Positions 2,060 to 46,146 are shown, counted from the first letter of the stretch. The stretch is DNA of 64,000 bases from Flavobacterium sp. (GCF_035456085.1 NZ_DATIDY010000040.1:7609-71608), one strand, 5' to 3'. Notes: generated by a model not told the origin, from the letters alone. Numbers and translations are program-made.

Positions 2060-2539
2060 ATGAAAATAAATTCATTTCCATATTTTATTGATTCCGATAC
2101 CGAAATTTTGATTTTAGGAACTATGCCTGGAGCAATGTCTCTGGAAAAGCAAGAATATTACGCTCATCCAAGAAATCATTTTTGGAGAATTCTATATACT
2201 ATTTTTGATGCATTACCCATTGATGTTGATTTTGAAGATAAGAAAAAATTCTTGAAAGCTCACAAAATAGGACTTTGGGATGTATTAGAAAATTGCGAAA
2301 GAAAGGGAAGTCTGGATATTCATATCAAAAATCAAAAAGAAAATGATTTTGAAGTTTTGCTAAAAGAATTCCCAAGAATCACTAAAATTATTTTTAACGG
2401 AAAACAAAGTCATGCTTTCTTCTATAAAATATTTGGACAAATTAAAGGCATTACTTATTTTGTAATGCCTTCAACTAGTCCTGCAAATACTATGAGTTTT
2501 GAGAATAAACTAAAAATTTGGTCAAGTTGTTTTGAATAA
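2060..2539 (+). CDS. DNA-deoxyinosine (hypoxanthine) glycosylase, UDG superfamily (family 6/MUG-like)
   Basis: ILGTMPG, YYAHPRNHFW, IGLWDV, FNG and PSTSPA motifs. Confidence 0.85.
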   Translation: MKINSFPYFIDSDTEILILGTMPGAMSLEKQEYYAHPRNHFWRILYTIFDALPIDVDFEDKKKFLKAHKIGLWDVLENCERKGSLDIHIKNQKENDFEVLLKEFPRITKIIFNGKQSHAFFYKIFGQIKGITYFVMPSTSPANTMSFENKLKIWSSCFE

Positions 2540-33440: not shown

Positions 33441-33453
33441 AGATTACTCAAAA

Positions 33454-35466
33454 ATGAAAAAATATATAAAAAATAAAATTTCAAGACTGGTGCCTTTGGC
33501 AGTATTGGCCGCTATGTCTGTTTCTTGTTCCAAAGATTTTCTTGAAGCAGATCCTCTTTCATTTTATAAACCTGAAAATACATTTAACACCGAAGCTGGG
33601 TTGCAGGCAACATTAGCACTATGCGATAAACAGCTTCGTAATAATTATGTTCATTATAATTTTTCTGGTGTTAGTGTTCCTATTGGTACTGAGTATCTTT
33701 TTTCTGATATGGCGCAATATGGAAAAACGGATACGAATGGTAGTATTGCTGATTATGCTAATACTATCGTTCCTTCTGCCGGTACAGATGTGTTCCGAAG
33801 AGATGCAGGTGGTGAGTCAATTTATCTTGGGTTTCTTTGGACTGAAGCCTATACAGGGATTAAGAATGCTAATACCATATTAACGTATATTGGTGATGTG
33901 AAAAGTTTATCCGAGGATGTTAAAAATAAATATATTGGACAAGCTTATTTTCATAGAGCTTACCGCTATCTTAATCTTGTGTATGAATTTGGAGACATAC
34001 CATTGATTACTAAAATTTTGGAAGTTCCAAAGCAGAGTTATTACTCTACTAAAAAAGAAGCCATCATAGAAATGATTACAGCTGATATGGAGAAAGCTGT
34101 ACAATGGGTACCAGACCAATCAAAAATTGGGTATGTAGGTATGGTTAGTAAAGGAGCATGCCGTCAGTTACTGATTAAGTGTTATTTGGCGTCGGGCAGA
34201 TTTGCTGATGCTGAAGCACAAGCAAACATTCTTATTAATCAATCAGGTTACTCTTTGGTGCAAAACAATTTGGGAATTTTTGATCCGGGAGGAAATCCTA
34301 CGGCATGGCCTATTACCAGAAATGTGATCTGGGATTTACACAGACCTGAAAACAAAGTTATAGGTTCTAATACTGAAGCTATATTGGTTGCACCAAATGG
34401 AGGAGCACAATCATTTTTAGCATTTGCTTCGATGAGAATTTTTGGGCCTAACTGGAATGATGCTAATTTAATTACTCCTGATGGTAAGACTGCAGCACCT
34501 CGTTTCCCATTGACTGATAAAACTAATTATAATGCAAAATATGATTATCAAAGAGCATTAGGACGCGGTATTGGTACCATAAGTGCTTCTTATTATTCAC
34601 AACATCCTATGTGGGTTGTAAACGGTGTTGAGGATAATCAAGATCTTAGACATAATAGCACTGTCGGTAACTGGGTGCATATGAAAGATCTAAAATATGC
34701 TTCTGGTGCAGGTGGTAGTGTTACATGGGCTGGACAAAATTTTAGAATGAAAGATGCAAATGGAAAACTGTTAGCATTGGATTCTATTCGTGATTGGTTT
34801 GATTTTCCTCATTATAAAATCTTTTATCATGATGTTGTAGCTGAAACCACCCCAACTGCTAATGATTTTCAGGGAGCTACTGCTGGAGCCAGTGCACATA
34901 TGTACATATATCGTTTGGCTGAGACCTATCTATTACGTGCAGAAGCTCGTTTTTATCAAGGGAATGTTGCAGGTGCAGCTCAGGATGTGAATGTTGTAAG
35001 AACAAGAGCAAAAGCTTCACAAATGTATACCACTGTAACTATTGGTGATATTTGTGCTGAAAGAGGAAGAGAACTTTATCTAGAAGAATGGAGAAATGTG
35101 GAGTTAAAACGTATTTCGCACTGTCTCGCTCTTAGCGGAAAACCGGATGAATGGGGTAATATTTACAGCAAAACCAATTGGGATAAGCAATCTGGAAGAG
35201 ATGCATCTGGAGGCAGTTATTGGTGGCAACGTATTGTGCATTATACCCTTTACAACAAATATCCAGCTGGTATTTCTATTAAACCAGGTGTAAAGTTTTA
35301 TACTATGGATAAGCGTAATAATTACTGGCCAATTCCATACAAACTTGCTATAGAACCTAATATTAATGGACAATTAAGTCAAAACTTTGGGTACGATGGT
35401 TATGATGCGAATGTGAAGGTTTGGACTAAATGGCAGGATGCTGTTGAAGATGAAAGCAAAATTTAA
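33454..35466 (+). CDS. RagB/SusD nutrient-binding lipoprotein
   Basis: Lipobox SVSC-SKDFLE, GQAYFHRAYRYLNLV..FGDIPL, YRLAETYLLRAEA, ERGRELYLE, WPIP. Confidence 0.95.
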   Translation: MKKYIKNKISRLVPLAVLAAMSVSCSKDFLEADPLSFYKPENTFNTEAGLQATLALCDKQLRNNYVHYNFSGVSVPIGTEYLFSDMAQYGKTDTNGSIADYANTIVPSAGTDVFRRDAGGESIYLGFLWTEAYTGIKNANTILTYIGDVKSLSEDVKNKYIGQAYFHRAYRYLNLVYEFGDIPLITKILEVPKQSYYSTKKEAIIEMITADMEKAVQWVPDQSKIGYVGMVSKGACRQLLIKCYLASGRFADAEAQANILINQSGYSLVQNNLGIFDPGGNPTAWPITRNVIWDLHRPENKVIGSNTEAILVAPNGGAQSFLAFASMRIFGPNWNDANLITPDGKTAAPRFPLTDKTNYNAKYDYQRALGRGIGTISASYYSQHPMWVVNGVEDNQDLRHNSTVGNWVHMKDLKYASGAGGSVTWAGQNFRMKDANGKLLALDSIRDWFDFPHYKIFYHDVVAETTPTANDFQGATAGASAHMYIYRLAETYLLRAEARFYQGNVAGAAQDVNVVRTRAKASQMYTTVTIGDICAERGRELYLEEWRNVELKRISHCLALSGKPDEWGNIYSKTNWDKQSGRDASGGSYWWQRIVHYTLYNKYPAGISIKPGVKFYTMDKRNNYWPIPYKLAIEPNINGQLSQNFGYDGYDANVKVWTKWQDAVEDESKI

Positions 35467-35546
35467 GCCGCTTTTAAATAAATTATTCAAATTAATTGAG
35501 CGCTTAAGGCTAAACCATTAAGCTATACACTTAGCTTTTACATACT

Positions 35547-35597
35547 AAAAATCCCTAACAATCAAGATTTAAATTCTGTTTGTTAGGGATTTTTTTT
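35547..35597. terminator. Bidirectional terminator between the SusD and CHRD genes
   Basis: AAAAATCCCTAACAA...TTGTTAGGGATTTTT arms. Confidence 0.7.
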
Positions 35598-35674
35598 AAA
35601 TAAAAAGTATATCATCTTACATTCGTTTGAATTAAAGAGGTCATTTTAATAACATTTTTTTGTTTTGTTTGCTA

Positions 35675-36148
35675 TTAATATGGACCACCTCCTCCTCCAC
35701 CAGTTCCGGTAGTTGAGCCTTTCATAAGTATTCCGCTGATTTCTCCACCAGGATTACTTGTGGTATGTAAGTTAACATAATAATGATTAGCCATAAGCTC
35801 CAAAATTTGAGCATCAGTTATAGTACCAGTAACAGTAAATGGTGAGGTTGCAATAGTTGCATCAGGAAAAGGAATTACAACTGCTCCATCGGCTCCATGA
35901 ATATGACCATGGGTCGGTGTTAGTCCTGTGTAAGTTACGGTAATTTCAAATGTTTTTTTGGTTTGATTTAATTTAAGTACTGCAGTTCCAGATGCTGATG
36001 AAGTGACACCAGTTGCAGCGGACAAAGTAGCATTAAAAACAGTAATGACATCAGTTGGAGGATTTGTATCCTCATTATCATCATTGGAGCACGAAGGAGT
36101 TATCAAAACAAGAAAAAACATTGCGGGAATAATTAATAATCGTTTCAT
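35675..36148 (-). CDS. CHRD domain lipoprotein
   Basis: Lipobox TPSC, SASGTA, YTGL.PT.GHIH and YYVNLHTTSNPGGEISG. Confidence 0.88.
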   Translation of the reverse strand: MKRLLIIPAMFFLVLITPSCSNDDNEDTNPPTDVITVFNATLSAATGVTSSASGTAVLKLNQTKKTFEITVTYTGLTPTHGHIHGADGAVVIPFPDATIATSPFTVTGTITDAQILELMANHYYVNLHTTSNPGGEISGILMKGSTTGTGGGGGGPY

Positions 36149-36295
36149 AATTGCAATTTTTTATTAGTTAATAATGAATTTAAAAGGTTCAGTAATAATT
36201 GGATTATTCCAATTGTAATTTTGGTAGAAATAAGTAGAAATAAATACTACTATTTCACTTTAATTTTTAATTAAAAGTGTGGCAAATTTTTTAGT

Positions 36296-36697
36296 CTATA
36301 CTCCAACATTCAAATTAAAATGTTGCAAAATTTGTTTGGGCGGCATTATTACTTCTTTACAAGCATTGTCAAACCACTCTACTTCTATCGTTACTTCTGC
36401 ACAATGTTCTCTTTTGGAATTTAAAAAGTAACTTTTAATACTGATTTTATTATCTATATAACATTGTTTCAACTCAACCGAAAAGCGTTCGGTAAACATT
36501 AGATCTTTATAACAAACTAATGCTTGATTTTTTTCCTGCAAACCTAAATTCAAAATGTTGAGTTTCTCTTTAGAAAATCCTTTATCAAACAAAAAATGAT
36601 ATAATAATCGAAGTGTGTATGAAATATAGGCTTTGCTTTCCATTACCATATAATCATTCACATCTTCTCCGGTAACACTATAGTTTTTACTGAACAT
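36296..36697 (-). CDS. Hotdog-fold thioesterase-like protein (degenerate)
   Basis: VTGEDVNDYMVM...Y and YKDLMFTERFSVEL resemble the 4HBT/YbgC fold. Confidence 0.55.
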   Translation of the reverse strand: MFSKNYSVTGEDVNDYMVMESKAYISYTLRLLYHFLFDKGFSKEKLNILNLGLQEKNQALVCYKDLMFTERFSVELKQCYIDNKISIKSYFLNSKREHCAEVTIEVEWFDNACKEVIMPPKQILQHFNLNVGV

Positions 36698-36792
36698 ATA
36701 AATTTGTTTAAGGTTATAAAAAAATAAATATTGAATTATTAATTAAATGATAAAGAGCATTTATTTAAACTATTACATCAATTAAAACTAAA

Positions 36793-37347
36793 TTATTTAA
36801 CCAATAAAAAATTGTAATTGATTTTCACTTTGTCCGCCACTTTTTGTCTGACAATGCTTGGAATTTTAATATCAAAATCTTCAGGTTTTACTTCAAAGGA
36901 ACCTATAATAGTAATCCCATTTGCAACTTTAGAAGCTCTCACAATTACTGCTAACGGCTGTATTTTTCCATGTATGGTAAGCTCACCTTTTAAATTAAAA
37001 TCTTTAGAGATGTTTGTGATTTTTGAAATATCAAAATCTTCAATTTTACCTTTTAGAGTTGCTTTTGGAAACTTTTCAGATTCCATATAGTTTTCATTGA
37101 AATGTTCTTCCATTAGAGCAACTTTAAACCGAAAACCTTTTACAAGAACCAAAGCAGCAAAATCTCCAGTTGATGATTCCAAAACCGCCGAAACACTTTT
37201 GCTTTCTGCTGCCACTTCTTCATACCCTGGCACAGAAGCCTGAAATTTTATAGTTCCCGTTTTTGTTATTAATTTTTGGGCAAAACCATTTGTATGTACA
37301 GCAGCAATCAACAGTATCAGAAAGATTTTTAGAACTGATTTTTTCAT
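36793..37347 (-). CDS. YceI family protein
   Basis: Signal peptide, TGTIKF, LMEEHFNENYMESEKFPKATLKG, GELTIHG, FDIKIP. Confidence 0.9.
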   Translation of the reverse strand: MKKSVLKIFLILLIAAVHTNGFAQKLITKTGTIKFQASVPGYEEVAAESKSVSAVLESSTGDFAALVLVKGFRFKVALMEEHFNENYMESEKFPKATLKGKIEDFDISKITNISKDFNLKGELTIHGKIQPLAVIVRASKVANGITIIGSFEVKPEDFDIKIPSIVRQKVADKVKINYNFLLVK

Positions 37348-37352
37348 CACTA

Positions 37353-37730
37353 TTAATTTTTTAATCCATCTGTATTCCATTTTAGAATCAAATCAATATT
37401 GGCTTGAGACATTCTTCCAGTTTTAGGCATAAGACCTTCCTGACCATTTTGCAACTGAATTCTATCTAATAATTGTGCGGTTTGTACAGCTGCTTTTACT
37501 TCAGCATATGTAGTTAGTGGTCTGAAAGATGCAGCCCCTCCACTTTTGTGACAACCTATACAATTAGCATCAATAACTGCTTTTACATCTTTGGTATAAG
37601 TTATTATCGATGGGTCAGTTATAGGTGGCGTAACAGTTTCTGGTGGTGTTGAGATATCGTCATAGGTATCAGAATTACTACAACTTGCTAATGAGGCTAA
37701 TAAAATTGTGAGTGCGATTGCTTTTTTCAT
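37353..37730 (-). CDS. c-type cytochrome lipoprotein
   Basis: Lipobox LASC, ITYTKDVKAVIDANCIGCH (CxxCH), distal LMP (possible Met ligand), LILKW. Confidence 0.8.
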   Translation of the reverse strand: MKKAIALTILLASLASCSNSDTYDDISTPPETVTPPITDPSIITYTKDVKAVIDANCIGCHKSGGAASFRPLTTYAEVKAAVQTAQLLDRIQLQNGQEGLMPKTGRMSQANIDLILKWNTDGLKN

Positions 37731-37750
37731 CGTGTATATATTTATAGTTA

Positions 37751-38593
37751 TTAAAATACTCTGTATATGTTAAATCCGAAGAAGAAATCTCCTTTACCCC
37801 AATTTCCGGCTGCATTTGTGAGATACCCGCTTTCGCTCATGGATTGTGAATTGGTAAATAATAATTGAAAAACATGCCCTCCAGTTTCAATATCCAAACC
37901 TACTGACAATGGATTTTCATAAAAACTAGGTTGATCAAAATTGTACATATATTCTAAGTTTACGGACAGCCTCTTAGTGATTTTATAGCGTCCTCCCCCA
38001 CCAAACGAAAACTGATTATCATTTTCTAAAGCTGGATCGTAAAGATTTCTATGTATAAAAGAAGGGATCACTTCTAATGATAATTTTTTATTGACTTTTC
38101 TTGAAATCAACAACTGTTGAATGCCTATATTCCGATGCTTAAATTCTAAACCCGGATATTGATCCGTGTCTAGAAATGTGTTGATATCCCACACACTATA
38201 CCCAACAATATCCAGAGGAAAATTATCGTCTTGTCTCATCAATCGGTATTTCAGTCCGATTTCGTACATTTTGTTTAATGTATGTCTGGAAAGGCTAACA
38301 GACAACCAATCGGTAATTCCGTAAATACCACCCAATTTTGTAGTCGCATTATCAAGACCAAAAAAGCCATCCAAACCATCCTTGACAGAACCGAAACGAT
38401 GTGATATCACAAAATAGAACTCCTTTTTGGCTGGTAATTTTGTGGATTGTAATGTTACCAATTGCAAAGCTTTGAAAGTGGCTGTTGCATAGCTGTCTTC
38501 TACCTGCGTAGAATCAATACTTTTGAGTAAATCATCTTGGGAATACGCTATCGTGGCCAAGAAAATACAGACTGTGACAAATAATTTCTTCAT
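37751..38593 (-). CDS. DUF5777 family beta-barrel protein
   Basis: ATFKALQLVTLQSTK, ISHRFGSV..FFGLD, GLDIETGGHVFQLLFTNS, FGFNIYRVF (C-terminal Phe). Confidence 0.85.
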   Translation of the reverse strand: MKKLFVTVCIFLATIAYSQDDLLKSIDSTQVEDSYATATFKALQLVTLQSTKLPAKKEFYFVISHRFGSVKDGLDGFFGLDNATTKLGGIYGITDWLSVSLSRHTLNKMYEIGLKYRLMRQDDNFPLDIVGYSVWDINTFLDTDQYPGLEFKHRNIGIQQLLISRKVNKKLSLEVIPSFIHRNLYDPALENDNQFSFGGGGRYKITKRLSVNLEYMYNFDQPSFYENPLSVGLDIETGGHVFQLLFTNSQSMSESGYLTNAAGNWGKGDFFFGFNIYRVF

Positions 38594-38600
38594 AAATTCA

Positions 38601-38999
38601 TTAATTGTTTTGTTTACTAATAATGCATTGATCCAATTTAACTTCCTGAAATAAATCATCGTAACCGATACATTTTCCTTTAATGGTTACTATATTGTTT
38701 TTAGGAATATTTTTTATTTTTTTAGTAAAAAGACAGAAAACTGTATTTTCAAGAATAAGTACCGAATCTGTTTTTTTGGTTATTAGTCCCGTTATTTCAA
38801 TAGTTTTATTGAGATAAACTAAATCCGCTTCTTTCGGATTTGCATCATACTCTTTAAGTAAAGTTGTTGCTGTAATGTTGGAATCAGGCATTTCTAAGGC
38901 TATATTGCGTGCTTCTTTAAAAACAACTCCGTAATACAGATAAATACCTACGGAAATCATTAATAACAAGACGATTACAAAAACTATTGATTTTTTCAT
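38601..38999 (-). CDS. Membrane-anchored OB-fold protein (tRNA_anti-like)
   Basis: N-terminal TM, A..L...Y..N...AD..YLNK.IEITG, VTIKGKCIGYD. Confidence 0.8.
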   Translation of the reverse strand: MKKSIVFVIVLLLMISVGIYLYYGVVFKEARNIALEMPDSNITATTLLKEYDANPKEADLVYLNKTIEITGLITKKTDSVLILENTVFCLFTKKIKNIPKNNIVTIKGKCIGYDDLFQEVKLDQCIISKQNN

Positions 39000-39025
39000 T
39001 TTTTTCTTATAATGAGATTCAATAG

Positions 39026-39054
39026 TAAAACAGTCTTGTAGTAGATTACCCTAC
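39026..39054 (-). promoter_or_regulatory. Putative ECF sigma promoter, copy A
   Basis: Minus strand GTAGGGTA-atctactacaagac-TGTTTTA, 27 nt before the 38999 start. Confidence 0.75.
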
Positions 39055-39100
39055 CAAAAAATTGTTATTTTTTTTGGAAAAAAATATATGAATTTTATTT

Positions 39101-39185
39101 TGACACGAATTACACGAATTAGCACGAATTGATTGTTTTTAAAAATTTCACAAATCAATTAATGGAATTATGTATAATCGAGTCA
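39101..39185. repeat. CACGAATT tandem repeat with a decayed inverted arm
   Basis: CACGAATT at 39104, 39113 and 39123; a related reversed unit lies at 43548-43567. Confidence 0.55.
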
Positions 39186-39190
39186 TACTT

Positions 39191-39352
39191 CACAATCTGG
39201 TCATTCTGACGAAGGATGAATCCCAGTGCCGTATATCCATATCGTATTTCCATCATCTAATAGTAAGAATTACAAAACTATTTTGATATTGATGAATTAC
39301 TTTGTCGAGCTACTTGCGGAGATTCTTCCTTCGTCAGAATGACAAGATTGTG
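39191..39352. mobile_element. REP-doublet/MITE-like element with about 34-bp imperfect inverted arms
   Basis: CACAATCTGGTCATTCTGACGAAGGATGAATCCC (39191-39224) vs GGAGATTCTTCCTTCGTCAGAATGACAAGATTGTG (39318-39352). Confidence 0.7.
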
Positions 39353-39396
39353 TCAATATTTTGTGAAGCAATGAAGTAATAATGTAACATAAAACC

Positions 39397-41928
39397 TTAA
39401 AATGAAGCTCTAAAACTCACATTTGGAGTTCTTCGGAGTGCGAAAGTTTCGACTTGTTCGATAGAATTTGTTATTGAGCTGATTCTGTAATATTCGCCTA
39501 TTGCATTCTTTCTGTTAAGGATATTTAAGATAGAAACCCCTATTTTGAATTGATTTCCATTTGCCGTTTCCCACTTGTAAGTCGATGAGAAATTAATTTG
39601 AGCAAAAATATTGATATTGGTATTATTGGGTTTATTATAAATCAAAGTAGGATTCGAAAGGTCAATTTGCGAATTATCAGGAGTCGTGGTAGGTTTTCCG
39701 GAGGACCATTTTGCACCCAAAGCAATTTTGAAATTGTTCTTTTCATAAATTCCTGCCCAAGATAAAGTGTGAGTCAACTCAAAGTTGTTTGGAAAAGTCG
39801 GAGGTATATAATTGGAAAAATTATAATTATTGTTATTGTAGGTATAACTAAACCAGGTCAGGAAGGAGTTAATTTTTTTCTGAACAAGCATTTCTGTCCC
39901 AAAAACTTCGTAATCGCCTGCCATTCGGATAAACTCTAATTGGTTTTGAAAACCTTGGCTTGAAGTCGTAATTCCGCTTACTTTTTTATAAAAATTCTCT
40001 ATGTCTAACAACCAATCATTCTTTTGGTAGATTAGATTTAAAGATAGCTGTTTACTTCTTTGAATAGGAATTGTGGAGTCATTTGAGATAATCCAACGCC
40101 TTTTTTCAATGCCAAAATAATCTTTTTGCAAATCAATAATTTGTTGAGAATTTTGGCTTTTTAATTCGCCCAAAAGTTCTAAATTCAAGCTTTTACTAAC
40201 TCCATAAACCAGTTGCACGCGCGGTTCTACAATGTACTTTTTAAATTTTTCGATATAATTAATTCGGGTTCCGACTTTAGCATACATTCTGGATAGTGTG
40301 TCATTGTATTTTCCTTCCAAAATTAATGCATGAGTTCTCAAAACATCTTTGACTTTGCGGTAGAATTGAGGAGTATTTACCTGCTCAAAATTTGTAATCC
40401 CAATTTCGTCAAATTGATATCCATTGTTAAAACTCAATTTAGGGCTCAGAATATGATTGTTTTCTAAATTTACTCCATTATTATTTACTTTATTTTCCTG
40501 AACAGCTACTTGGTCATTGACAGTGCTGTTTTGATTAGCCAGAAGTTCATAGGAAGAATTATAGATATTAATTTTGGTCGAATTGAAGCTGTTCCAGTCT
40601 CTTTTCCAAGACAGATTTCCGCCATAATTTTGTTGTTGCAACGTATTGTTTTCCGTTTTGTATGTGTCGTCTGAAGTGGCGCTTTGAAAAACTTCCAGAT
40701 TGTCTTTTATTGTTATTAAATCTAATACTAGCTGGTCTTTGTTTCCTATTTTTTGCGCAAATTTTAATGTTGCATCATAAAAATCAAATTTTTTATCGCT
40801 TTTATAATCAATATTTTGCGGAAGCGAAAAATCAGTAATGGTAGTGTTTTGAAATACTTTATTAAAATATTCTTTGTATGTAGGAGTTTCTACAAAATCT
40901 GTGATGGATTTACGAGCTGAAATTTCGATATAATTTTTTTTCGAAAGATTGTATTTGCCATAAATATCAGCATTAATCATATTGATTCCTGCACTAAAAG
41001 AGTTCTTTTCCGGTATTTCGGGAGTAGATGAGATAGCAACTACGCTCGAAACACTTTCGCCATAAAAAGCAGAACTTCCGCTTTTATAAATAGAAATCGT
41101 GTGCGCCAAATTGGGATTAAAGACTGATATTAAACCAAAAAAATGTCCCGTTTGGTACATTCGTATTCCATTCCATAAAAACAAATTTTGATCATGTGTA
41201 CCACCACGAACATTAATGCTTGAAACACTTTCGTCAATACTGTTTACACCAGGAATTTGTTGCATGGTTTGTAATGCATCTGGCTCAATAAGTCCAGGCA
41301 AAATACCAAATTTCTTAGGTTTGATTTCAAATGAACCATCTTGTTTTTTTGAAATACCCGAAGCCAAGATTGCATTGGTTTTAATTTCTTCTAGTTCGGT
41401 TATTTCTGGTTCTAAAATTATTTCGAGACAATCGGAGTCTGAATTATCCACTTCAATTCTTTGGGATTTGAATCCTACATGGCTAATCAAAAGTGTATTT
41501 TGATCTTCTTTTTTAAATTCAAAATATCCTTTTGGATCAGTTGTAATTTGTGATTTATCATTCAAATTAATATTTACGTTTTCGATAGGTTTTTTATCAG
41601 AAATGGAAAAAACGTAACCACAAATTGTTTCCGTGTGATTTTCTTTTTTATAAATATTAATGAATTTGTTATCTAGATTTTCAAAAGACAAATTAGTTTT
41701 TCTGGCAAGATATTCGAGTTTTTGCTCTAGAGAAAGTGTTTTTTTGGGTGGAATTAATTGCAGTCCGGCAATTGTATTTTCGGTATAATTGAAAGTAACC
41801 TGATGTTGTTTTTCAATATCGTTTATGATTTTTTTGAAAGGCACAAGTTTCCCCGAGTCCTGGGCAGAAAGATGCAGAACACAGAAAAATATAAAAAGCA
41901 AAAAACGAAATCGTTTGGGGAGCAACAT
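39397..41928 (-). CDS. TonB-dependent receptor with N-terminal signalling-like domain (FecA-type)
   Basis: STN-like N-terminus, CarboxypepD_reg-like domain, plug (LPG..EPD..QTMQQIPGV, NVRGG..DQNL), C-terminal Phe. Confidence 0.9.
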   Translation of the reverse strand: MLLPKRFRFLLFIFFCVLHLSAQDSGKLVPFKKIINDIEKQHQVTFNYTENTIAGLQLIPPKKTLSLEQKLEYLARKTNLSFENLDNKFINIYKKENHTETICGYVFSISDKKPIENVNINLNDKSQITTDPKGYFEFKKEDQNTLLISHVGFKSQRIEVDNSDSDCLEIILEPEITELEEIKTNAILASGISKKQDGSFEIKPKKFGILPGLIEPDALQTMQQIPGVNSIDESVSSINVRGGTHDQNLFLWNGIRMYQTGHFFGLISVFNPNLAHTISIYKSGSSAFYGESVSSVVAISSTPEIPEKNSFSAGINMINADIYGKYNLSKKNYIEISARKSITDFVETPTYKEYFNKVFQNTTITDFSLPQNIDYKSDKKFDFYDATLKFAQKIGNKDQLVLDLITIKDNLEVFQSATSDDTYKTENNTLQQQNYGGNLSWKRDWNSFNSTKINIYNSSYELLANQNSTVNDQVAVQENKVNNNGVNLENNHILSPKLSFNNGYQFDEIGITNFEQVNTPQFYRKVKDVLRTHALILEGKYNDTLSRMYAKVGTRINYIEKFKKYIVEPRVQLVYGVSKSLNLELLGELKSQNSQQIIDLQKDYFGIEKRRWIISNDSTIPIQRSKQLSLNLIYQKNDWLLDIENFYKKVSGITTSSQGFQNQLEFIRMAGDYEVFGTEMLVQKKINSFLTWFSYTYNNNNYNFSNYIPPTFPNNFELTHTLSWAGIYEKNNFKIALGAKWSSGKPTTTPDNSQIDLSNPTLIYNKPNNTNINIFAQINFSSTYKWETANGNQFKIGVSILNILNRKNAIGEYYRISSITNSIEQVETFALRRTPNVSFRASF

Positions 41929-42828
41929 TTATTTTTCTTCAAAAATTATTTTGTCTTTTGAAACTTTTTTTGCTTCTAAATGATAAGTTGTACTGATAAT
42001 TTGCAAAGCCACATCTAGATCTTTACTTGGCAATTTTCCAGTGAATAACGAAACTGTATCTTTTGCTTTCAATTCGACTTCGATATTATATTGTCTTTCA
42101 ACTTCATCTAATAAAGTTCTGATGTTTTCTCTGGAAAAACTGATTTGATTGTCTATCCATTCTGGTCTTGCTGAATTGATAAGCATTTTAACTTGTTTTC
42201 CATTTTCAAAACTAACACCTTGTCCGTGAGTCAATAGAATTTGAAAGTTTGAATAATTCACCTTAACACGACCTTCATAACACACAACATCAAACCTGTT
42301 TTTTCGGGTTTTGACATTAAATTGCGTTCCTAAAACAGAAACTTTTCCAAGGCTGGTTTGTACTTCAAAACGTCTGCCTTTTGCAACTTTGAAATAAGCT
42401 TCTCCTTTAAGTTCTAAACGCCGATTGTTATCCCAATTCCATTTTTTATACTGAATTTCAGAGCCTGAATTTAGCACCACTTCCGAATTATCAGGTAATA
42501 AAAACATTGTTTTTTCTCCAAAGTTTGCTGTTTCTGTTTGTGCCACTAAAACCTTCAAAGCATATGTAATTCCAAGCGCCAGAACCAAAACAGCTACTGC
42601 TTGAAAAATCCATTTTTTGTATAAAGGAACGACTTTGACAGGCTTTTTTTCCTGTTTGAGAATATTAAATAACATGGCATTTTCATCCAAATCATCTACT
42701 TCTAAATGATCTGTATATGCTTTTATTTTTTGGTATTTCTCAAAATCAGGACTTGCTCTAAATTCAACTAATTCAGCCTCCGATAAATCGTTGTCGAGCC
42801 ATTTTGCTAATAAGCGATTCTTTTTCAT
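41929..42828 (-). CDS. FecR family anti-sigma factor
   Basis: TM helix, LPDNSEVVLNSGS, LKGEAYFKV, VLGTQFNV, VCYEGRV, VERQYNI. Confidence 0.93.
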   Translation of the reverse strand: MKKNRLLAKWLDNDLSEAELVEFRASPDFEKYQKIKAYTDHLEVDDLDENAMLFNILKQEKKPVKVVPLYKKWIFQAVAVLVLALGITYALKVLVAQTETANFGEKTMFLLPDNSEVVLNSGSEIQYKKWNWDNNRRLELKGEAYFKVAKGRRFEVQTSLGKVSVLGTQFNVKTRKNRFDVVCYEGRVKVNYSNFQILLTHGQGVSFENGKQVKMLINSARPEWIDNQISFSRENIRTLLDEVERQYNIEVELKAKDTVSLFTGKLPSKDLDVALQIISTTYHLEAKKVSKDKIIFEEK

Positions 42829-42847
42829 TGTATTCGTATTACATCAT

Positions 42848-42876
42848 TAAAACAATTGAAACTCCTTGTACCCTAC
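42848..42876 (-). promoter_or_regulatory. Putative ECF sigma promoter, copy B
   Basis: Minus strand GTAGGGTA-caaggagtttcaat-TGTTTTA, between the sigma stop and the fecR start. Confidence 0.75.
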
Positions 42877-42878
42877 TT

Positions 42879-43394
42879 TTATAACTCTACCTCTTTGCGC
42901 AAACTCAGCAAAGCCAAATGAATTCGTTTTTCTACTGCCTTTACGCTAATATTAAGCTCTGAGGCAATTTCGCTGTATTTTTTTCCATCAATTCGATGCA
43001 TCAAAAAGGCAACTCGCTGTTTTTCGTTTAAATTTTCAATAGCTTTCAAAAGCTTTGCTTGATACTGTTTCTCTTCCAAAATATATTCGGGGCTTTCATT
43101 GGTTTTATCCAAACCTGTGAAGTTTTTTTCATACCTCAAAACAACTTTTTGATGTGCAATTTCATTAAGACTGCTATTGTTTGCAATCGTATAAATATAT
43201 GATTTCGCCTTATCTAATGGCACCGAAGCACAGTTTTGCCAAAGTTTTATAAATGCTTCTTGTGCCAAATCCTCGGCTCGACCAATATTGCCGTATTTGT
43301 AAAAAAGAAAATTCCGAAGTGATTTTACATGACTTTTAAAAAAAGACGAGAAAATAACTTCGTCACAAGTATTTGATTGGTTTTTATCTGGCAT
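42879..43394 (-). CDS. ECF-subfamily RNA polymerase sigma factor
   Basis: Region 2 (AEDLAQEAFIKLW, YIYTIANN) and region 4 (RVAFLMHRIDGKKYSEIA..LNISVKAVEKRI). Confidence 0.94.
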   Translation of the reverse strand: MPDKNQSNTCDEVIFSSFFKSHVKSLRNFLFYKYGNIGRAEDLAQEAFIKLWQNCASVPLDKAKSYIYTIANNSSLNEIAHQKVVLRYEKNFTGLDKTNESPEYILEEKQYQAKLLKAIENLNEKQRVAFLMHRIDGKKYSEIASELNISVKAVEKRIHLALLSLRKEVEL

Positions 43395-43433
43395 GTAGGT
43401 TTTTCTATTGGTATAAAAAATATTTTAATTAAA

Positions 43434-43462
43434 GTAGGGTAAAAATCAAGCTGAATGTTTTA
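43434..43462 (+). promoter_or_regulatory. Putative ECF sigma promoter, copy C
   Basis: GTAGGGTA-aaaatcaagctgaa-TGTTTTA, pointing towards the 43652 gene. Confidence 0.7.
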
Positions 43463-43651
43463 TTAGAGTGTCTGGACATTGGTTTATTTCAAACAAACAA
43501 GAACAGATAATTGGTTTAAATTTATTTTGCAATTATAGCAATAGCGTAAATTCTTGTAATTCGTGGCAACAAAACAACTTAAACCCTTGATGTCAAATTT
43601 ATTAAAAAAAACAATTTCTTTTAATTTTATTACATTTGTAAAAATATAAAT

Positions 43652-44671
43652 ATGTCCCCTTTAACAAAATATTTATCAATAGTCATGATTTTGTTCTTAT
43701 TCTCCTGCCAAAACGAGATGGAAGAACAGAGTTATAATGCACCGGAAACCGTTACAAATACTTCTCCGCTGACTTCGTATTTGCAAAGAGTTTCAATGGT
43801 AAAAACGGTTCAGGATAATGTGATTGACGGATCTACTTATTGTACCATTAAACTCCCTTATACAGTTACTGTCAATAATGCTAAAATTGCCGTAAACACT
43901 ACCGCCGATTACCAGAAAGTACAAGACAATATCAATGCAAATAGCTATGACGATGATATTGTAAAAATAGATTTTCCTGTAACTATGGTCTACTACAATT
44001 ACATCGAAAAACCAATTCCAAATCAAGCTGATTTTGATGCTTTAATTGATTATTGGAATCTTTACCCTGATCTTTTATACAAAATCAATGGGTTGAACAT
44101 CAATTATCCAATAACAATTGATACTTACAATAGTGCCAATCAATTCGCAAGTTCAACATCCATTGTGAGTGATCAGGCTTTTTTTAATTTTATAAAAAAC
44201 CTGAACAGTAGTCAGTACATTTCGTTAAAATATCCAATCACCGTTGTTGACTACAATAATCAAACAAAAATAATTGCAAACAATTCCGATTTCGAAGATG
44301 CTATCGAATATGCAATTAAATACTGTCCAGAAAACAACATTGTCACACTTGATTTTGTAAGTGCAATAACAAATGGCACATGGAAAATCCCTTATTTTTT
44401 CTTTGATACAGACCAAACTTCTTCCTATAGTGGCTATTCATTTGTTTTTAAAAATGACTATTCTGTTGTTGCTACCAAAGGAACGATTTCGGAAACTGGT
44501 CAATGGGAAACTAAAGTAAACAATGGTGTTAGGGAAGTAAAATTAAGTTTCAATTCAGACGTACTCAAAAAGTTGAATAATAACTGGGATGTCTACGAAT
44601 TTAATAATTCGCATATACGATTGCGAAATGAAGGCGGTAGTACTGCTAGTTATCTTTATTTTGAGAAATGA
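43652..44671 (+). CDS. Lipoprotein with internal [FY]P[IVY]T repeats and a C-terminal lipocalin-like beta domain
   Basis: Lipobox LFSC; four repeats (LPYTV, FPVTM, YPITI, YPITV); GTWKI..F, GQW, WDV. Confidence 0.75.
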   Translation: MSPLTKYLSIVMILFLFSCQNEMEEQSYNAPETVTNTSPLTSYLQRVSMVKTVQDNVIDGSTYCTIKLPYTVTVNNAKIAVNTTADYQKVQDNINANSYDDDIVKIDFPVTMVYYNYIEKPIPNQADFDALIDYWNLYPDLLYKINGLNINYPITIDTYNSANQFASSTSIVSDQAFFNFIKNLNSSQYISLKYPITVVDYNNQTKIIANNSDFEDAIEYAIKYCPENNIVTLDFVSAITNGTWKIPYFFFDTDQTSSYSGYSFVFKNDYSVVATKGTISETGQWETKVNNGVREVKLSFNSDVLKKLNNNWDVYEFNNSHIRLRNEGGSTASYLYFEK

Positions 44672-44844
44672 CAGACTGTTTGAGTTCTATTTAATAGCAT
44701 AAACTACAAACTATTATATTTCAATAAATTTATTTTTCATTGATAATTTTTTAATACCTCCTAGATTTTTTCTTACCAAAATCTAAATTTTTCATCATCC
44801 AATAATAATTTGTAAATTAGAAATTACAAAAACCAATTATTGTA

Positions 44845-45630
44845 ATGATCATGAAAATAGCCACTTATAATGTAAATGGAATTAACGGACGCTTAAATGT
44901 TTTGCTGCGGTGGCTTGAAGAAAGCGCCCCAGATATTGTGTGTCTACAGGAATTGAAAGCACCTCAGGATAAATTTCCTGAAAAAGCCATAGCTGATGCC
45001 GGATATAACGCCATCTGGCATGGACAAAAACAATGGAACGGCGTCGCGATACTTGCCCGTAATATGGAAATTGAAGAAGTGACCCGTACACTTCCAGGAA
45101 ATGACGAAGATGTTCAAAGCCGATATATTGAAGCGCTTATAAACGGCATTGTCATTGCGTGTTTATATCTGCCCAACGGCAATCCCGCACCAGGTCCGAA
45201 ATTTGAATATAAATTAAAATGGTTCGAAAGACTTTCAGAAAGAGCCGAAGTGCTTTTGAGCTTGAAAACTCCGGTAATTCTCATCGGCGATTTCAATGTT
45301 ATGCCAACAGAACTTGATGTTTATAAACCTGAAAAATGGGTCAAAGATGCCCTTTTCAGACCTGAAGTCCGCAAAGCTTTTAGCGATATTACCGCACAAG
45401 GATGGACAGATGCAATTCGTACTCTATATCCAAACGAAAAGATTTATACTTTCTGGGACTACTTTAGAAATGCCTATCAAAGAGACGCTGGTCTTCGCAT
45501 CGATCATTTTTTGTTAAGTTCGGAGCTAGCACCAAAGCTTCTTTCCGGCCAAGTGGATCGTCATGTACGCGGTTGGGAAAAAACCAGTGATCATGCTCCT
45601 GTGTGGATTGAAATTGATCACAAAATTTAG
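44845..45630 (+). CDS. xth: Exodeoxyribonuclease III / AP endonuclease
   Basis: ATYNVNG, LQELK, YLPNG, GDFNV, YTFWDY, GLRIDHFL, SDHAPV. Confidence 0.94.
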   Translation: MIMKIATYNVNGINGRLNVLLRWLEESAPDIVCLQELKAPQDKFPEKAIADAGYNAIWHGQKQWNGVAILARNMEIEEVTRTLPGNDEDVQSRYIEALINGIVIACLYLPNGNPAPGPKFEYKLKWFERLSERAEVLLSLKTPVILIGDFNVMPTELDVYKPEKWVKDALFRPEVRKAFSDITAQGWTDAIRTLYPNEKIYTFWDYFRNAYQRDAGLRIDHFLLSSELAPKLLSGQVDRHVRGWEKTSDHAPVWIEIDHKI

Positions 45631-45749
45631 CAACGAAGTTTGTTCTTATTATTTGCAAAAATTCAAATCCTGTAACATATCGTATTGATTTTGTAATTAT
45701 TACCCCGATTAGTATTTTAATTTTATCATTCATTTTAAAATAATATATC

Positions 45750-45929
45750 ATGGATAATAAATCAAAAACAGGAAAAAGTGATGATTCACGTATTAATGTA
45801 AATGAATCGTATGAATTGCAATACTGGTCTGAAAAGCTCAATGTGAGCAGAGATCAGTTGAGAAATGCTGTCCAGGCAGTTGGTCCAGATGTGAATGAAG
45901 TTACTCAATATCTTAAACAAAAATCATAG
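45750..45929 (+). CDS. DUF3606 domain small protein (not in the ORF track)
   Basis: MDNKSKTGKSDDSRINVNESYELQYWSEKLNVSRDQLRNAVQAVGPDVNEVTQYLKQKS*. Confidence 0.85.
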   Translation: MDNKSKTGKSDDSRINVNESYELQYWSEKLNVSRDQLRNAVQAVGPDVNEVTQYLKQKS

Positions 45930-45933
45930 CATC

Positions 45934-46146
45934 ATGCCTTGGTATAACGGGGATTATCCTCCATCATATAAGAATCAGCCCATAGCACTGAGGGAAAAAG
46001 CCGTCGAAATAGCCAATGGACTCCTTGGTGATGGAGTTCCTGAAGGCATTGCAATTGCCACTGGACTAAAGCAGGCACGTGAATTATTAAAGAATCATAA
46101 AGAGAAAAATTCAACAACAGAAACCAATGGAAAAAGATCTAAATAA
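45934..46146 (+). CDS. Small protein, MPW..DYP family (DUF2188-associated type)
   Basis: MPWYNGDYPPSYKNQ...KAVEIANGLL..G..EG.AIATGLKQA; start set at the ATG at 45934. Confidence 0.7.
   Translation: MPWYNGDYPPSYKNQPIALREKAVEIANGLLGDGVPEGIAIATGLKQARELLKNHKEKNSTTETNGKRSK

What the first reader, a model, noticed from the sequence alone, without database searches (positions are those of the whole stretch)
39026..43462. Exact bipartite motif GTAGGGTA-N14-TGTTTTA in front of three transcription units defines a putative ECF sigma regulon
Seen: three copies with identical 8+7 nt boxes and an identical 14-nt spacer, at 39026-39054 (-; OB-fold/DUF5777/cytochrome c/YceI operon), 42848-42876 (-; fecR-TonB receptor) and 43434-43462 (+; towards the 43652 lipoprotein). 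Each points towards the downstream gene, and I found no other copy by eye. Established: ECF sigmas recognise bipartite -35/-10 motifs and FecI/FecR/FecA-type cassettes activate neighbouring operons. Inference: the sigma at 42879-43394 drives these units, tying an uncharacterised heme-lipoprotein/beta-barrel operon to a trans-envelope signal.
Basis: partly seen in the sequence, partly recalled or inferred. Interest (0 to 1): 0.75.

Follow-up and report, generated by a model that had tools for sequence, protein, structure and literature searches.

The report
Conserved ECF sigma promoter motif, Flavobacterium
Three identical two-part DNA signals around a sigma factor / anti-sigma / outer-membrane receptor gene cluster of a soil Flavobacterium are almost certainly the promoters this alternative sigma factor uses, because the same signals sit in the same places in hundreds of related bacteria. 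It is a clear but fairly ordinary regulatory switch controlling genes of unknown function.

Summary
GTAGGGTA-N14-TGTTTTA occurs exactly three times in the window, at the stated coordinates and strands. None is expected by chance, and there is no further copy at two mismatches or fewer.

- In 80 orthologous loci found through the sigma protein alone, the motif (two mismatches or fewer) sits in the sigma-fecR gap in 77 of 79 loci and divergently upstream of the lipoprotein gene in 73 of 74.
- It precedes the OB/DUF5777/cytochrome c/YceI operon wherever that operon lies.
- GTAGGG and TGTT never vary, while the spacers diverge.
- A truncated scan of all GTDB genomes returned 120 stretches. 89 are Flavobacteriales, and 43 of those carry the sigma ortholog beside the motif.

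Refinements:
- The sigma gene itself lacks the motif and has a sigmaA-type box instead.
- The lipoprotein gene has a 189-nt leader and its own sigmaA-type promoter.
- The receptor's signalling domain is only a sub-threshold match.
- The same motif sits between sigma and fecR in Parabacteroides/Tannerellaceae cassettes whose sigma is only 27% identical. It is therefore a promoter class, not unique to this sigma.

No transcription data could be found. Verdict: a real, new member of a known kind, of moderate interest.

The parts
39026..39054 (-). P1: ECF-type promoter motif GTAGGGTA-N14-TGTTTTA in front of the OB-fold/DUF5777/cytochrome c/YceI operon. Predicted transcription start near 39020, giving a leader of about 21 nt.
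   Evidence: Exact match. The orthologous site directly after the receptor gene has two mismatches or fewer in 38 of 49 protein-selected loci. In loci where the operon lies elsewhere, the motif precedes it there. The start position is inferred from the B. thetaiotaomicron BT_0189 start site, where TGTATTA lies at -12 to -6.
42848..42876 (-). P2: the same motif fills the 50-nt gap between the sigma stop codon and the fecR start codon. Predicted start near 42842. It would drive fecR and the TonB-dependent receptor gene.
   Evidence: Exact match. Present at two mismatches or fewer in 77 of 79 orthologous loci. The motif end lies 17-22 nt before the fecR ATG. No terminator-like site was found in the gap.
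43434..43462 (+). P3: the same motif, divergent from the sigma gene and pointing to the 339-aa lipoprotein gene. Predicted start near 43468, giving a leader of about 184 nt.
   Evidence: Exact match. Present at two mismatches or fewer in 73 of 74 orthologous loci. The leader is 107-306 nt in Flavobacterium and about 30 nt in marine genera.
42879..43394 (-). ECF sigma factor (171 aa), presumed to recognise P1-P3.
   Evidence: Pfam Sigma70_r2 and Sigma70_r4_2. The best NCBIfam hit is TIGR02985 'Bacteroides expansion family 1' at 117.7 bits, below its cut-off of 126.4. Homologous to the solved ECF sigmas SigW and RpoE.
41929..42828 (-). FecR-type anti-sigma factor (299 aa).
   Evidence: Pfam FecR and FecR_C.
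39397..41928 (-). TonB-dependent receptor (843 aa) with a possible STN-like N-terminal signalling domain.
   Evidence: Pfam CarboxypepD_reg_2 and Plug. Residues 1-105 give sub-threshold hits to STN (E 0.023, full-length match) and FecR_C (E 0.0014). No relative in the PDB by sequence.
38601..38999 (-). Membrane-anchored OB-fold protein (tRNA_anti-like), first gene of the P1 operon.
   Evidence: Pfam PF12869. Synteny is conserved.
37751..38659 (-). DUF5777 outer-membrane beta-barrel protein. The true start is probably the internal ATG at 38593.
   Evidence: Pfam PF19089, E 9.5e-86. The N-terminus is shown.
37353..37730 (-). Mono-haem cytochrome c lipoprotein.
   Evidence: Pfam Cytochrome_CBB3. 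One CXXCH at residue 57 and a lipobox.
36793..37380 (-). YceI-like periplasmic protein, the last conserved gene of the P1 operon.
   Evidence: Pfam YceI. Conserved after the cytochrome c gene in orthologous loci.
43652..44671 (+). 339-aa lipoprotein with no recognised domain. It is the commonest gene downstream of the motif in the genome scan.
   Evidence: No Pfam or NCBIfam hit. Homologs are annotated as hypothetical proteins or lipoproteins. It was the first gene downstream of the exact motif in 27 cases. The AlphaFold model is poor, pLDDT 47.
43631..43638 (+). TACATTTG: a sigmaA-type -7 box 13 nt before the lipoprotein ATG, probably a second, housekeeping-type promoter.
   Evidence: Conserved block in the alignment of ten Flavobacterium intergenic regions. 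The TAnnTTTG consensus is taken from PMC9723704 and PMC7366714.
43415..43422 (-). Possible sigmaA-type -7 box of the sigma gene. It is degenerate in the window (TATTTTTT) and reads TACTTTTG in relatives.
   Evidence: Alignment. No ECF motif lies in the sigma-sense orientation upstream of sigma in 75 loci; the best match there has 4 or more mismatches.

Best explanation
The three motif copies are promoters read by RNA polymerase carrying the ECF sigma factor encoded at 42879-43394. GTAGGGTA would be the -35 element and TGTTTTA the -10 element, with transcription starting about 6 nt after the final A.

Proposed working (inferred, not shown):
1. The sigma gene is transcribed from its own housekeeping (sigmaA-type) promoter. 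There is no terminator in the gap, so some read-through into fecR and the receptor gene is likely.
2. FecR holds the sigma factor at the inner membrane.
3. A still unknown ligand at the 843-aa TonB-dependent receptor signals through the receptor's N-terminal extension to FecR, and the sigma factor is released.
4. The freed sigma factor fires P2 (more anti-sigma and receptor, but not more sigma), P3 (lipoprotein) and P1 (OB-fold protein, DUF5777 barrel, cytochrome c lipoprotein, YceI).

The regulon is thus a small set of envelope proteins clustered around the sigma gene, several of them redox proteins. In other genera it also includes DUF4382 lipoproteins, secreted intradiol-dioxygenase-like proteins, Rieske and dihaem proteins.

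Shown: the motif, its conservation, position, orientation and co-occurrence with the sigma gene.
Inferred: the start sites, sigma dependence, the signalling path and the ligand.
For: Motif and chance:
- Exact triple occurrence against zero expected.

Conservation in loci chosen by protein, not by motif:
- Four loci and 80 metagenome loci at 75-95% sigma identity were examined.
- Site 2 is present in 77 of 79, site 3 in 73 of 74 and site 1 in 38 of 49.
- Only four stray 2-mismatch hits were found in 770 kb.
- Positions 1-6 (GTAGGG) and 23-25 (TGT) are invariant in 166 distinct sites, and position 26 (T) differs once. All other mismatches fall at positions 7-8 and 27-29. Spacers are not conserved between site classes.
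- The motif precedes the OB/DUF5777 operon when that operon lies 2 kb further away, or in loci without the sigma gene.

Genome-wide scan:
- 89 of 120 returned stretches are Flavobacteriales. 43 of those hold the sigma ortholog (46-89% identity) next to the motif, and 50 hold at least one gene of the cluster.
- The first downstream gene is the lipoprotein in 27 cases, fecR in 24, and OB, Lipoprotein_15 or cytochrome c in 13.

Geometry:
- Fixed N14 spacing, 17-22 nt to the fecR ATG, and no RNA structure.

Experimental parallels in B. thetaiotaomicron:
- The anti-sigma genes BT_0189 and BT_0753 have their own mapped start sites inside the sigma/anti-sigma gap. BT_0189 has TGTATTA at -12 to -6. 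The sigma genes have TAnnTTTG promoters (supplement of PMC7366714).
- A 'TGTT' element at about -10 is reported for non-canonical promoters proposed to be ECF-dependent (PMC12596196).
Against: - There is no transcript evidence for this organism or any ortholog, so start sites and sigma dependence are untested.
- The boxes do not match the canonical ECF consensus (-35 AAC, -10 CGT).
- The same motif occurs in sigma-fecR gaps of Bacteroidales cassettes whose sigma is only 27% identical. Another ECF sigma of the same class, elsewhere in this genome, could in principle read these promoters.
- The lipoprotein gene lies 189 nt from P3 and has its own sigmaA-type box, so P3's contribution there is uncertain.
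Confidence: 0.8

Rival explanations
1. The motif is an ECF-type promoter, but it is read by a different sigma factor of the same promoter class encoded elsewhere in the genome, or by several of them (cross-talk). The adjacent sigma would not be the only, or the true, driver.
For: The same GTAGGGT-N14/15-TGTNNTA motif lies between sigma and fecR in Tannerellaceae/Parabacteroides SusC/SusD cassettes whose sigma is 27% identical to the window's. Specificity is therefore not unique to one orthologous group. About 39 Flavobacteriales stretches carry the motif without a gene of the cluster in the same 8-kb block.
Against: In Flavobacteriales every sigma found next to the motif belongs to this one orthologous group, at 43-89% identity. 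The motif and this sigma co-occur across many genera. A paralogous sigma/fecR pair on the same contig as a GTAGGGTA-class pair (L214) has a different -35 (tCGGGACt) and a different sigma region 4 helix. That suggests paralogs within one genome are insulated from each other.
Confidence: 0.1
2. The motif is the operator of a conventional transcription factor (activator or repressor), not a promoter.
For: Conserved upstream elements at fixed distance from genes can be operators. The boxes do not resemble canonical ECF -35/-10 elements.
Against: - The motif is asymmetric, neither a palindrome nor a direct repeat.
- It is strictly orientation-dependent relative to the gene, and it ends 17-22 nt before the fecR start codon. 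A downstream promoter would have no room there.
- The only regulator gene conserved with it is the sigma/anti-sigma pair.
- Its -10 half matches the experimentally placed -12 to -6 element of a B. thetaiotaomicron anti-sigma promoter.
Confidence: 0.05
3. The motif acts at the RNA level (a leader or intercistronic element in the sigma-fecR transcript), or it is part of a repeated mobile element.
For: Site 2 lies within a possible sigma-fecR co-transcript. Orientation dependence would also fit an RNA element.
Against: - There is no complementarity between the boxes, and folding energy is no better than shuffled sequence.
- No Rfam family matches.
- Flanks and spacers are not conserved between the three copies, which excludes a mobile repeat.
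- Site 3 lies upstream of a divergently transcribed gene with no upstream promoter to transcribe it.
Confidence: 0.03

Closest known systems
E. coli FecI/FecR/FecA and Pseudomonas cell-surface signalling systems (ECF243-type FecI-like sigmas)
   Same: An ECF sigma gene next to a FecR-domain anti-sigma gene and a TonB-dependent receptor gene. The sigma gene is not autoregulated. The sigma-dependent promoter lies in front of the transport genes, and the regulon is small and local (established knowledge; PMC9249621, PMC7826278).
   Different: - The predicted sigma-dependent promoter sits before fecR and the receptor gene, so the anti-sigma is co-induced. In fec, fecR is co-transcribed with fecI from a Fur-controlled promoter.
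- The sigma scores far below the FecI equivalog cut-off (65.6 against 260 bits).
- The receptor's STN domain is sub-threshold.
- No link to iron is shown.
- The extra regulon members are redox proteins and lipoproteins, not an ABC importer.
Bacteroides thetaiotaomicron PUL-associated ECF-sigma/anti-sigma/SusC systems (original group ECF10; ECF239/240)
   Same: The sigma is of the 'Bacteroides expansion family 1' type (TIGR02985 is the best hit) and is paired with a FecR-like anti-sigma. In B. thetaiotaomicron, start sites are mapped inside the sigma/anti-sigma gap for BT_0189 and BT_0753, the sigma genes have TAnnTTTG promoters, and BT_0189 has a TGTATTA -10 element at -12 to -6. The Parabacteroides/Tannerellaceae cassettes carry the identical GTAGGGT...TGT motif.
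   Different: The receptor here has 843 aa and no SusD partner, and the neighbourhood holds no glycan-degrading enzymes. The regulon consists of cytochrome c, YceI, DUF5777 and lipoproteins. The -35 of BT_0189 and BT_0753 differs from GTAGGGTA.
B. thetaiotaomicron non-canonical promoter motif PM2 (-30/-10), Ryan et al. 2020, with its proposed ECF assignment in BtModulome 2025
   Same: A bipartite promoter that is not of the sigmaA type, with a 'TGTT' element at about -10 of mapped start sites (PMC12596196, PMC7366714).
   Different: PM2 is linked to oxidative-stress and stationary-phase genes and to ECF114/ECF251-type sigmas. Its -30 element is not given in the text I could read, so identity with GTAGGGTA is unknown.

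Membership tests
ECF-sigma-dependent promoter | Two short conserved boxes at fixed spacing (-35/-10 geometry) | tested here: met
   GTAGGGTA-N14-TGTTTTA occurs three times. The spacing is invariant in 194 orthologous sites. GTAGGG and TGT never vary and the following T differs once, which is equivalent to GTAGGG-N16-TGTT.
ECF-sigma-dependent promoter | Located upstream of, and oriented towards, the regulated gene at promoter-like distance | tested here: met
   19, 26 and 189 nt to the start codons in the window. 17-22 nt to fecR in 77 loci. A downstream gene usually starts 15-60 nt after the motif in the genome scan.
ECF-sigma-dependent promoter | Co-occurrence with a cognate ECF sigma gene across genomes | tested here: met
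   43 of 89 Flavobacteriales stretches from the motif scan carry the sigma ortholog in the same 8-kb block. 77 of 79 and 73 of 74 loci selected by the sigma protein carry the motif.
ECF-sigma-dependent promoter | Canonical ECF consensus (-35 with AAC, -10 with CGT) | tested here: not met
   The boxes are GTAGGGTA and TGTTTTA. The -10 half does resemble TGTATTA at -12 to -6 of the mapped BT_0189 start site and the 'TGTT' at about -10 reported in PMC12596196.
ECF-sigma-dependent promoter | Transcription start a few nt downstream of the -10 box, and dependence on the sigma factor | not testable with these tools
   No RNA runs hold the window or two orthologous loci. F. psychrophilum, the flavobacterium with a published start-site map, showed no FecR-type system and no copy of the motif in the supplement text that is held.
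FecI/FecR/FecA-type cell-surface signalling | ECF sigma with sigma2 and sigma4 domains, of the FecI-like clade | tested here: inconclusive
   The domains are present and the protein is homologous to solved ECF sigmas. The best model is TIGR02985 at 117.7 bits, below its cut-off of 126.4. The FecI equivalog NF041727 scores 65.6 against a cut-off of 260. No ECFhub classification tool was available.
FecI/FecR/FecA-type cell-surface signalling | Adjacent FecR-domain anti-sigma factor | tested here: met
   PF04773 (E 2e-18) and PF16344 (E 4e-9) in the 299-aa protein directly downstream.
FecI/FecR/FecA-type cell-surface signalling | TonB-dependent transducer with an N-terminal STN signalling domain | tested here: inconclusive
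   Plug and CarboxypepD_reg domains are clear. Residues 1-105 match STN over its full length, but at E 0.023 and 14.9 bits against a cut-off of 28.4. They also match FecR_C at E 0.0014.
FecI/FecR/FecA-type cell-surface signalling | Iron/Fur control of the sigma operon and an iron-carrier substrate | not tested
   No Fur-box analysis was done and no siderophore or haem uptake genes are in the cluster. The sigma gene has a sigmaA-type -7 box in relatives.
Bacteroidota PUL-type ECF/anti-sigma/SusC-SusD system | SusC-like receptor paired with a SusD-like lipoprotein and glycan-active enzymes | tested here: not met
   There is no SusD gene next to the 843-aa receptor gene. The SusC/SusD pair at 29985-35466 is a separate unit without the motif.

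The most novel reading that the evidence does not exclude
GTAGGGTA-N14-TGT(T/A)TTA may be a promoter class used across the phylum Bacteroidota by FecR-coupled 'expansion family 1' ECF sigma factors. In this reading TGTWTTA is a generic -10 element and the -35 box is the discriminator. Sigma factors as little as 27% identical, in Flavobacteriaceae and in Parabacteroides/Tannerellaceae, would share exactly the same specificity. A short signature in the region 4.2 helix would go with it: K-x-V-E-K-[RHQ], against K-T-V-K-N-Q in a paralog that has a different -35. If so, ECF-controlled loci, including gut Bacteroidales PULs, could be assigned to their sigma factors from sequence alone. The conserved placement of the promoter between the sigma and anti-sigma genes (anti-sigma induced, sigma not) would then be a general design rule.
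Probability: 0.35. Interest if true: 0.6.

Novelty: new member of a known kind. Interest (0 to 1): 0.5.

Why it matters
Promoters of FecI-like ECF sigma factors, and of Bacteroidota ECF sigmas in general, are poorly defined.
- Todor et al. 2020 (PMC7776599) found FecI-like sigmas over-represented among those without a regulon prediction.
- Ryan et al. 2020 (PMC7366714) state that no motif is known for any B. thetaiotaomicron ECF.
- Ravcheev et al. 2013 (PMC3878776) left ECF promoters unpredicted.

Here is a sharply defined, deeply conserved bipartite motif tied to one sigma/FecR/receptor cluster across Flavobacteriaceae, and reappearing in Bacteroidales PUL cassettes.

It provides:
- a concrete, testable regulon for a set of uncharacterised envelope proteins (DUF5777 barrel, OB-fold protein, cytochrome c lipoprotein, YceI, a domain-less lipoprotein, DUF4382, secreted dioxygenase-like proteins);
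- a handle for finding the inducing signal, for example a P2 or P1 reporter;
- a candidate orthogonal promoter/sigma pair for genetic tools in flavobacteria.

It does not change the concept of how such systems work.

Tried and rejected
- **Transcript evidence.** Four searches for sequencing runs found only soil-metagenome DNA runs and no RNA (window, DNA and RNA; L073; L041).
- **F. psychrophilum start-site tables** (PMC9723704 supplement). No FecR-type system appears. The one GTAGGGTA string there lies in a sigmaA promoter and is irrelevant.
- **Literature search for the string GTAGGGTA**. Only primers and unrelated sequences came back.
- **Papers on DUF5777**. None found.
- **ECF reclassification supplement** (PMC7826278). 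Not held, so no ECF239/240 promoter logo could be compared.
- **Rfam** on 35000-46000. Nothing relevant.
- **Structure of the 339-aa lipoprotein.** AlphaFold2 with 25 close homologs gave pLDDT 47, too poor for a fold search. There is no sequence relative in the PDB, and none for the receptor either.
- **More paralogous FecR genes.** A phmmer search in all fetched loci found none beyond the two families, so the -35 discriminator idea rests on one paralog (L214b).
- **Mobile-repeat reading.** Rejected, because the flanks of the three copies do not align.
- **Generic sigma-70 promoter/terminator scan**. At chance level, and not informative for Bacteroidota.

Full report
**1. The observation**

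The pattern GTAGGGTA-N14-TGTTTTA occurs exactly three times in the 64-kb window: at 39026-39054 (-), 42848-42876 (-) and 43434-43462 (+). None of 100 dinucleotide-preserving shuffles gave any match. Allowing three mismatches adds only two 3-mismatch hits, which is the chance level. The window has 31.9% G+C.

Each copy points at the next gene start:
- 26 nt before the ATG at 38999;
- 19 nt before the fecR ATG at 42828;
- 189 nt before the ATG at 43652.

Outside the boxes the three copies do not align, so they are not copies of a repeat element.

**2. The genes**

- an ECF sigma factor (42879-43394, -);
- a FecR/FecR_C anti-sigma factor (41929-42828, -);
- an 843-aa TonB-dependent receptor with CarboxypepD_reg and Plug domains (39397-41928, -);
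- then tRNA_anti-like OB fold, DUF5777, cytochrome c and YceI genes, followed by a 4HBT-like gene and a CHRD gene.

The cytochrome has one CXXCH and a lipoprotein signal. The divergent 339-aa protein (43652-44671, +) has a lipobox and no recognisable domain. Its homologs are all annotated as hypothetical proteins or lipoproteins.

The sigma factor's best NCBIfam model is TIGR02985, the 'Bacteroides expansion family 1', just below its cut-off. The FecI equivalog scores far below its cut-off. By sequence the protein is a genuine ECF sigma, related to the solved SigW and RpoE structures.

The receptor's first 105 residues give only sub-threshold hits to STN (E 0.023, but covering the whole model) and to FecR_C. 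A signalling domain is therefore plausible but not demonstrated.

The window comes from a Flavobacterium genome assembled from a soil metagenome.

**3. Conservation at orthologous loci**

Four loci were fetched through sigma homologs: two for a Flavobacterium sp. KBS0721 sigma homolog, one for F. gilvum and one for F. cellulosilyticum. They show the same gene order with different outer flanks. The motif is at all three positions and orientations, and the spacers have diverged.

To avoid ascertainment by the motif, I fetched 80 metagenomic loci with the sigma protein alone, at 75-95% identity. Among loci that cover the position, the motif is present at two mismatches or fewer as follows:

| Position | Loci with motif |
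|---|---|
| sigma-fecR gap (site 2) | 77 of 79 |
| divergent from sigma (site 3) | 73 of 74 |
| directly after the receptor gene (site 1) | 38 of 49 |

Of the loci that lack the site after the receptor gene, four have the OB/DUF5777 operon about 2 kb further on, and there the motif precedes it; in the others no OB/DUF5777 gene lies downstream of the receptor gene within the stretch fetched. Only four stray 2-mismatch hits occur in 770 kb.

In 166 distinct sites, positions 1-6 (GTAGGG) and 23-25 (TGT) never vary, and position 26 (T) differs once. All other mismatches fall at positions 7-8 and 27-29. The spacer is not conserved between site classes. This is the footprint expected of a -35/-10 pair, in effect GTAGGG-N16-TGTT.

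The motif end lies 17-22 nt before the fecR start codon in 77 loci. No RNA structure is predicted around the sites.

**4. Scan of all GTDB species genomes**

The exact pattern was searched in genome contigs.
- 89 of the 120 stretches are Flavobacteriales, from many genera. These include Flavobacterium, Maribacter, Aquimarina, Tenacibaculum, Aequorivita, Altibacter, Eudoraea, Sinomicrobium, Lutibacter and Arenibacter.
- 43 of these carry the sigma ortholog (43-89% identity) in the same 8-kb block, and 50 carry at least one gene of the cluster.
- Where one site was the exact match that brought a locus in, the other site is nearly always present as well, down to 46% sigma identity.
- The first gene downstream of the motif is the lipoprotein family in 27 cases, fecR in 24, and OB-fold, Lipoprotein_15 or cytochrome c genes in 13.

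Further recurrent downstream genes, in stretches without the cluster, are mostly exported proteins: DUF4382 lipoproteins, secreted intradiol-dioxygenase-like proteins, a Rieske protein, a lipocalin-like lipoprotein, a DUF3575 barrel and a dihaem cytochrome. The regulon is thus local in Flavobacterium but has dispersed, variable members in other genera.

**5. What the sigma gene itself has**

In 75 orthologous loci, the best match to the motif in the sigma-sense orientation within 300 nt upstream of the sigma gene has four or more mismatches. An alignment of ten Flavobacterium intergenic regions shows a sigmaA-type -7 box about 20 nt before the sigma start codon instead. It reads TACTTTTG in relatives (consensus TAnnTTTG) and is degenerate in the window (TATTTTTT).

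The same alignment shows a second perfect box, TACATTTG, 13 nt before the lipoprotein ATG. Two conclusions follow:
- The sigma gene is not autoregulated through this motif.
- The lipoprotein gene probably has two promoters, a distal ECF-type one with a 107-306 nt leader and a proximal housekeeping one.

In marine genera the motif lies about 30 nt from the start of a longer (about 590 aa) homolog.

No terminator-like site lies in the sigma-fecR gap. Basal read-through from the sigma promoter into fecR and the receptor gene is therefore likely.

**6. Experimental parallels**

No RNA data exist for the window or for two orthologous loci. F. psychrophilum, the flavobacterium with a published start-site map, shows no such system in the supplement text that is held.

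The B. thetaiotaomicron dRNA-seq table (supplement of PMC7366714) is informative:
- The anti-sigma genes BT_0189 and BT_0753 each have their own mapped start site inside the sigma/anti-sigma gap.
- The sigma genes BT_0188 and BT_0752 start from TAnnTTTG promoters.
- The BT_0189 promoter carries TGTATTA at -12 to -6.

A 2025 study also reports a 'TGTT' element at about -10 in non-canonical B. thetaiotaomicron promoters and proposes that ECF sigmas read them (PMC12596196).

By analogy, the window's start sites should lie near 39020, 42842 and 43468.

**7. The motif is a class, not a private signal**

One hit of the genome scan, L112 (Tannerellaceae), has the exact motif 22 nt before the fecR gene of a sigma/FecR/SusC/SusD cassette. 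Its sigma is only 27% identical to the window's.

Homologs of that sigma from Parabacteroides and relatives (41-78% identical to it) keep GTAGGGT(A/G/C)-N14 or N15-TGT(T/A/C)(T/C)TA at the same place. One locus is weaker, with GGAGGGTG.

A neighbouring paralogous pair on one of these contigs (L214b) has tCGGGACt instead, followed by TGTCTAT. Its sigma region 4.2 helix reads K-T-V-K-N-Q, where all GTAGGGT-class sigmas read K-x-V-E-K-(R/H/Q). That is a single comparison and only a lead.

The picture that fits is a generic TGTWTTA -10 element for this sigma family, with the -35 box as discriminator. At least two distant sigma lineages share the GTAGGGTA specificity. Within Flavobacteriales, every sigma found beside the motif belongs to the one orthologous group. 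Assigning P1-P3 to the adjacent sigma therefore remains the best reading, but cross-talk cannot be excluded.

**8. Mechanism proposed (inferred)**

1. There is basal sigmaA-dependent expression of the sigma gene, with read-through into fecR and the receptor gene.
2. FecR sequesters the sigma factor.
3. An unknown ligand at the receptor signals through the N-terminal extension to FecR, and the sigma factor is released.
4. The holoenzyme fires P2, P3 and P1.

P2 raises anti-sigma and receptor but not sigma. This combines receptor amplification with negative feedback, and it differs from E. coli fec, where fecR is co-transcribed with fecI.

P3 and the sigma promoter lie back to back, about 16 nt apart in relatives. 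Mutual interference is possible but untested.

The gene products include a cytochrome c lipoprotein, YceI, the DUF5777 barrel and an OB-fold anchor. Relatives add Rieske, dioxygenase-like and dihaem proteins. This suggests an envelope redox or metal- or aromatic-compound-related function. No evidence here identifies the signal.

**9. Comparison and novelty**

The system works like a FecI/FecR/FecA-type or Bacteroides PUL-type trans-envelope signalling unit.
- It is not a FecI equivalog.
- It has no SusD partner or glycan-degrading enzymes.
- Its promoter boxes are not the canonical AAC/CGT.

In the papers I could read, no promoter motif is given for Bacteroidota FecR-coupled ECFs. I could not see the ECFhub logos.

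I rate it a new member of a known kind. The finding is real, strongly conserved, and useful as a defined promoter and regulon, but conceptually expected. Interest is 0.5. The more novel reading (a phylum-wide promoter class with a readable -35 code) gets probability 0.35.

Noticed in passing
window 39200-39343: An inverted repeat with 23-nt arms, GTCATTCTGACGAAGGA(A/T)GAATC, about 98 nt apart. It lies in the unusually long 343-nt gap between the receptor stop codon and site 1. The same arms occur at the same relative place in L125 (closest relative) and L003 (F. gilvum), but in no other fetched locus. It could be a small palindromic insertion or a hairpin terminator.
   Followed up: partly
window 39104-39121 (-) and 43557-43565 (+): The 9-mer TAATTCGTG occurs twice in tandem just upstream of site 1 and once in the leader downstream of site 3. 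That is 3 matches against 0.74 expected. Its meaning is unknown.
   Followed up: no
window 43585-43651: A conserved block, CCTTGATGnCGAATTTATTAAAAAACA...TACATTTG, lies just before the lipoprotein ATG in ten Flavobacterium loci. It contains a perfect sigmaA-type -7 box, so the gene probably has a second, housekeeping promoter. The upstream part of the block could be a regulator site.
   Followed up: partly
L201 (metagenome locus), sigma at 6501-6992: A sigma ortholog (79% identity) with no fecR, receptor or lipoprotein gene nearby and no motif copy within 13 kb. It is either an orphan copy or an assembly chimera.
   Followed up: no
L011 (Aquimarina) 2379-2407 (+): Here the motif precedes a DUF3575 barrel gene, which is followed by the sigma and fecR genes. 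In this genus the sigma gene may therefore be autoregulated by read-through, unlike in Flavobacterium.
   Followed up: partly
L079 2642-3289; L180 12391-12718; L182, L193, L195: Divergent pairs of motif copies start about 300 nt apart on opposite strands (285-620 nt). One drives the OB/DUF5777/cytochrome c/YceI operon. In L079 the other drives a dihaem cytochrome-like lipoprotein gene; the partner gene in the other four loci was not identified.
   Followed up: partly
L004, L014, L017, L022, L051, L060, L063, L116 and others, downstream of the lipoprotein homolog: The lipoprotein gene is followed by ffh (SRP54, about 445 aa) and folD (about 294 aa) in many genera. This is conserved synteny with housekeeping genes that are probably not part of the regulon. 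In the window the next gene is an Exo_endo_phos family gene instead.
   Followed up: partly
window 37751-38659 (-): The DUF5777 reading frame as listed overlaps the OB-fold gene by 59 nt. The signal peptide starts at the internal Met (MKKLFVTVC...), so the real start is probably 38593.
   Followed up: no
L214 363-920 (-) and its gap to fecR: A paralogous sigma/fecR pair lies on the same contig as a GTAGGGTA-class pair. It has tCGGGACt-N16-TGTCTAT in its gap and K-T-V-K-N-Q in sigma region 4.2, where GTAGGGT-class sigmas have K-x-V-E-K-[RHQ]. This is a possible specificity determinant, based on one comparison.
   Followed up: partly
window 29985-35466 (+): A SusC-like (1151 aa) / SusD-like (679 aa) pair lies directly downstream of the regulon. 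It has no copy of the motif and no sigma/anti-sigma pair next to it within the window.
   Followed up: no
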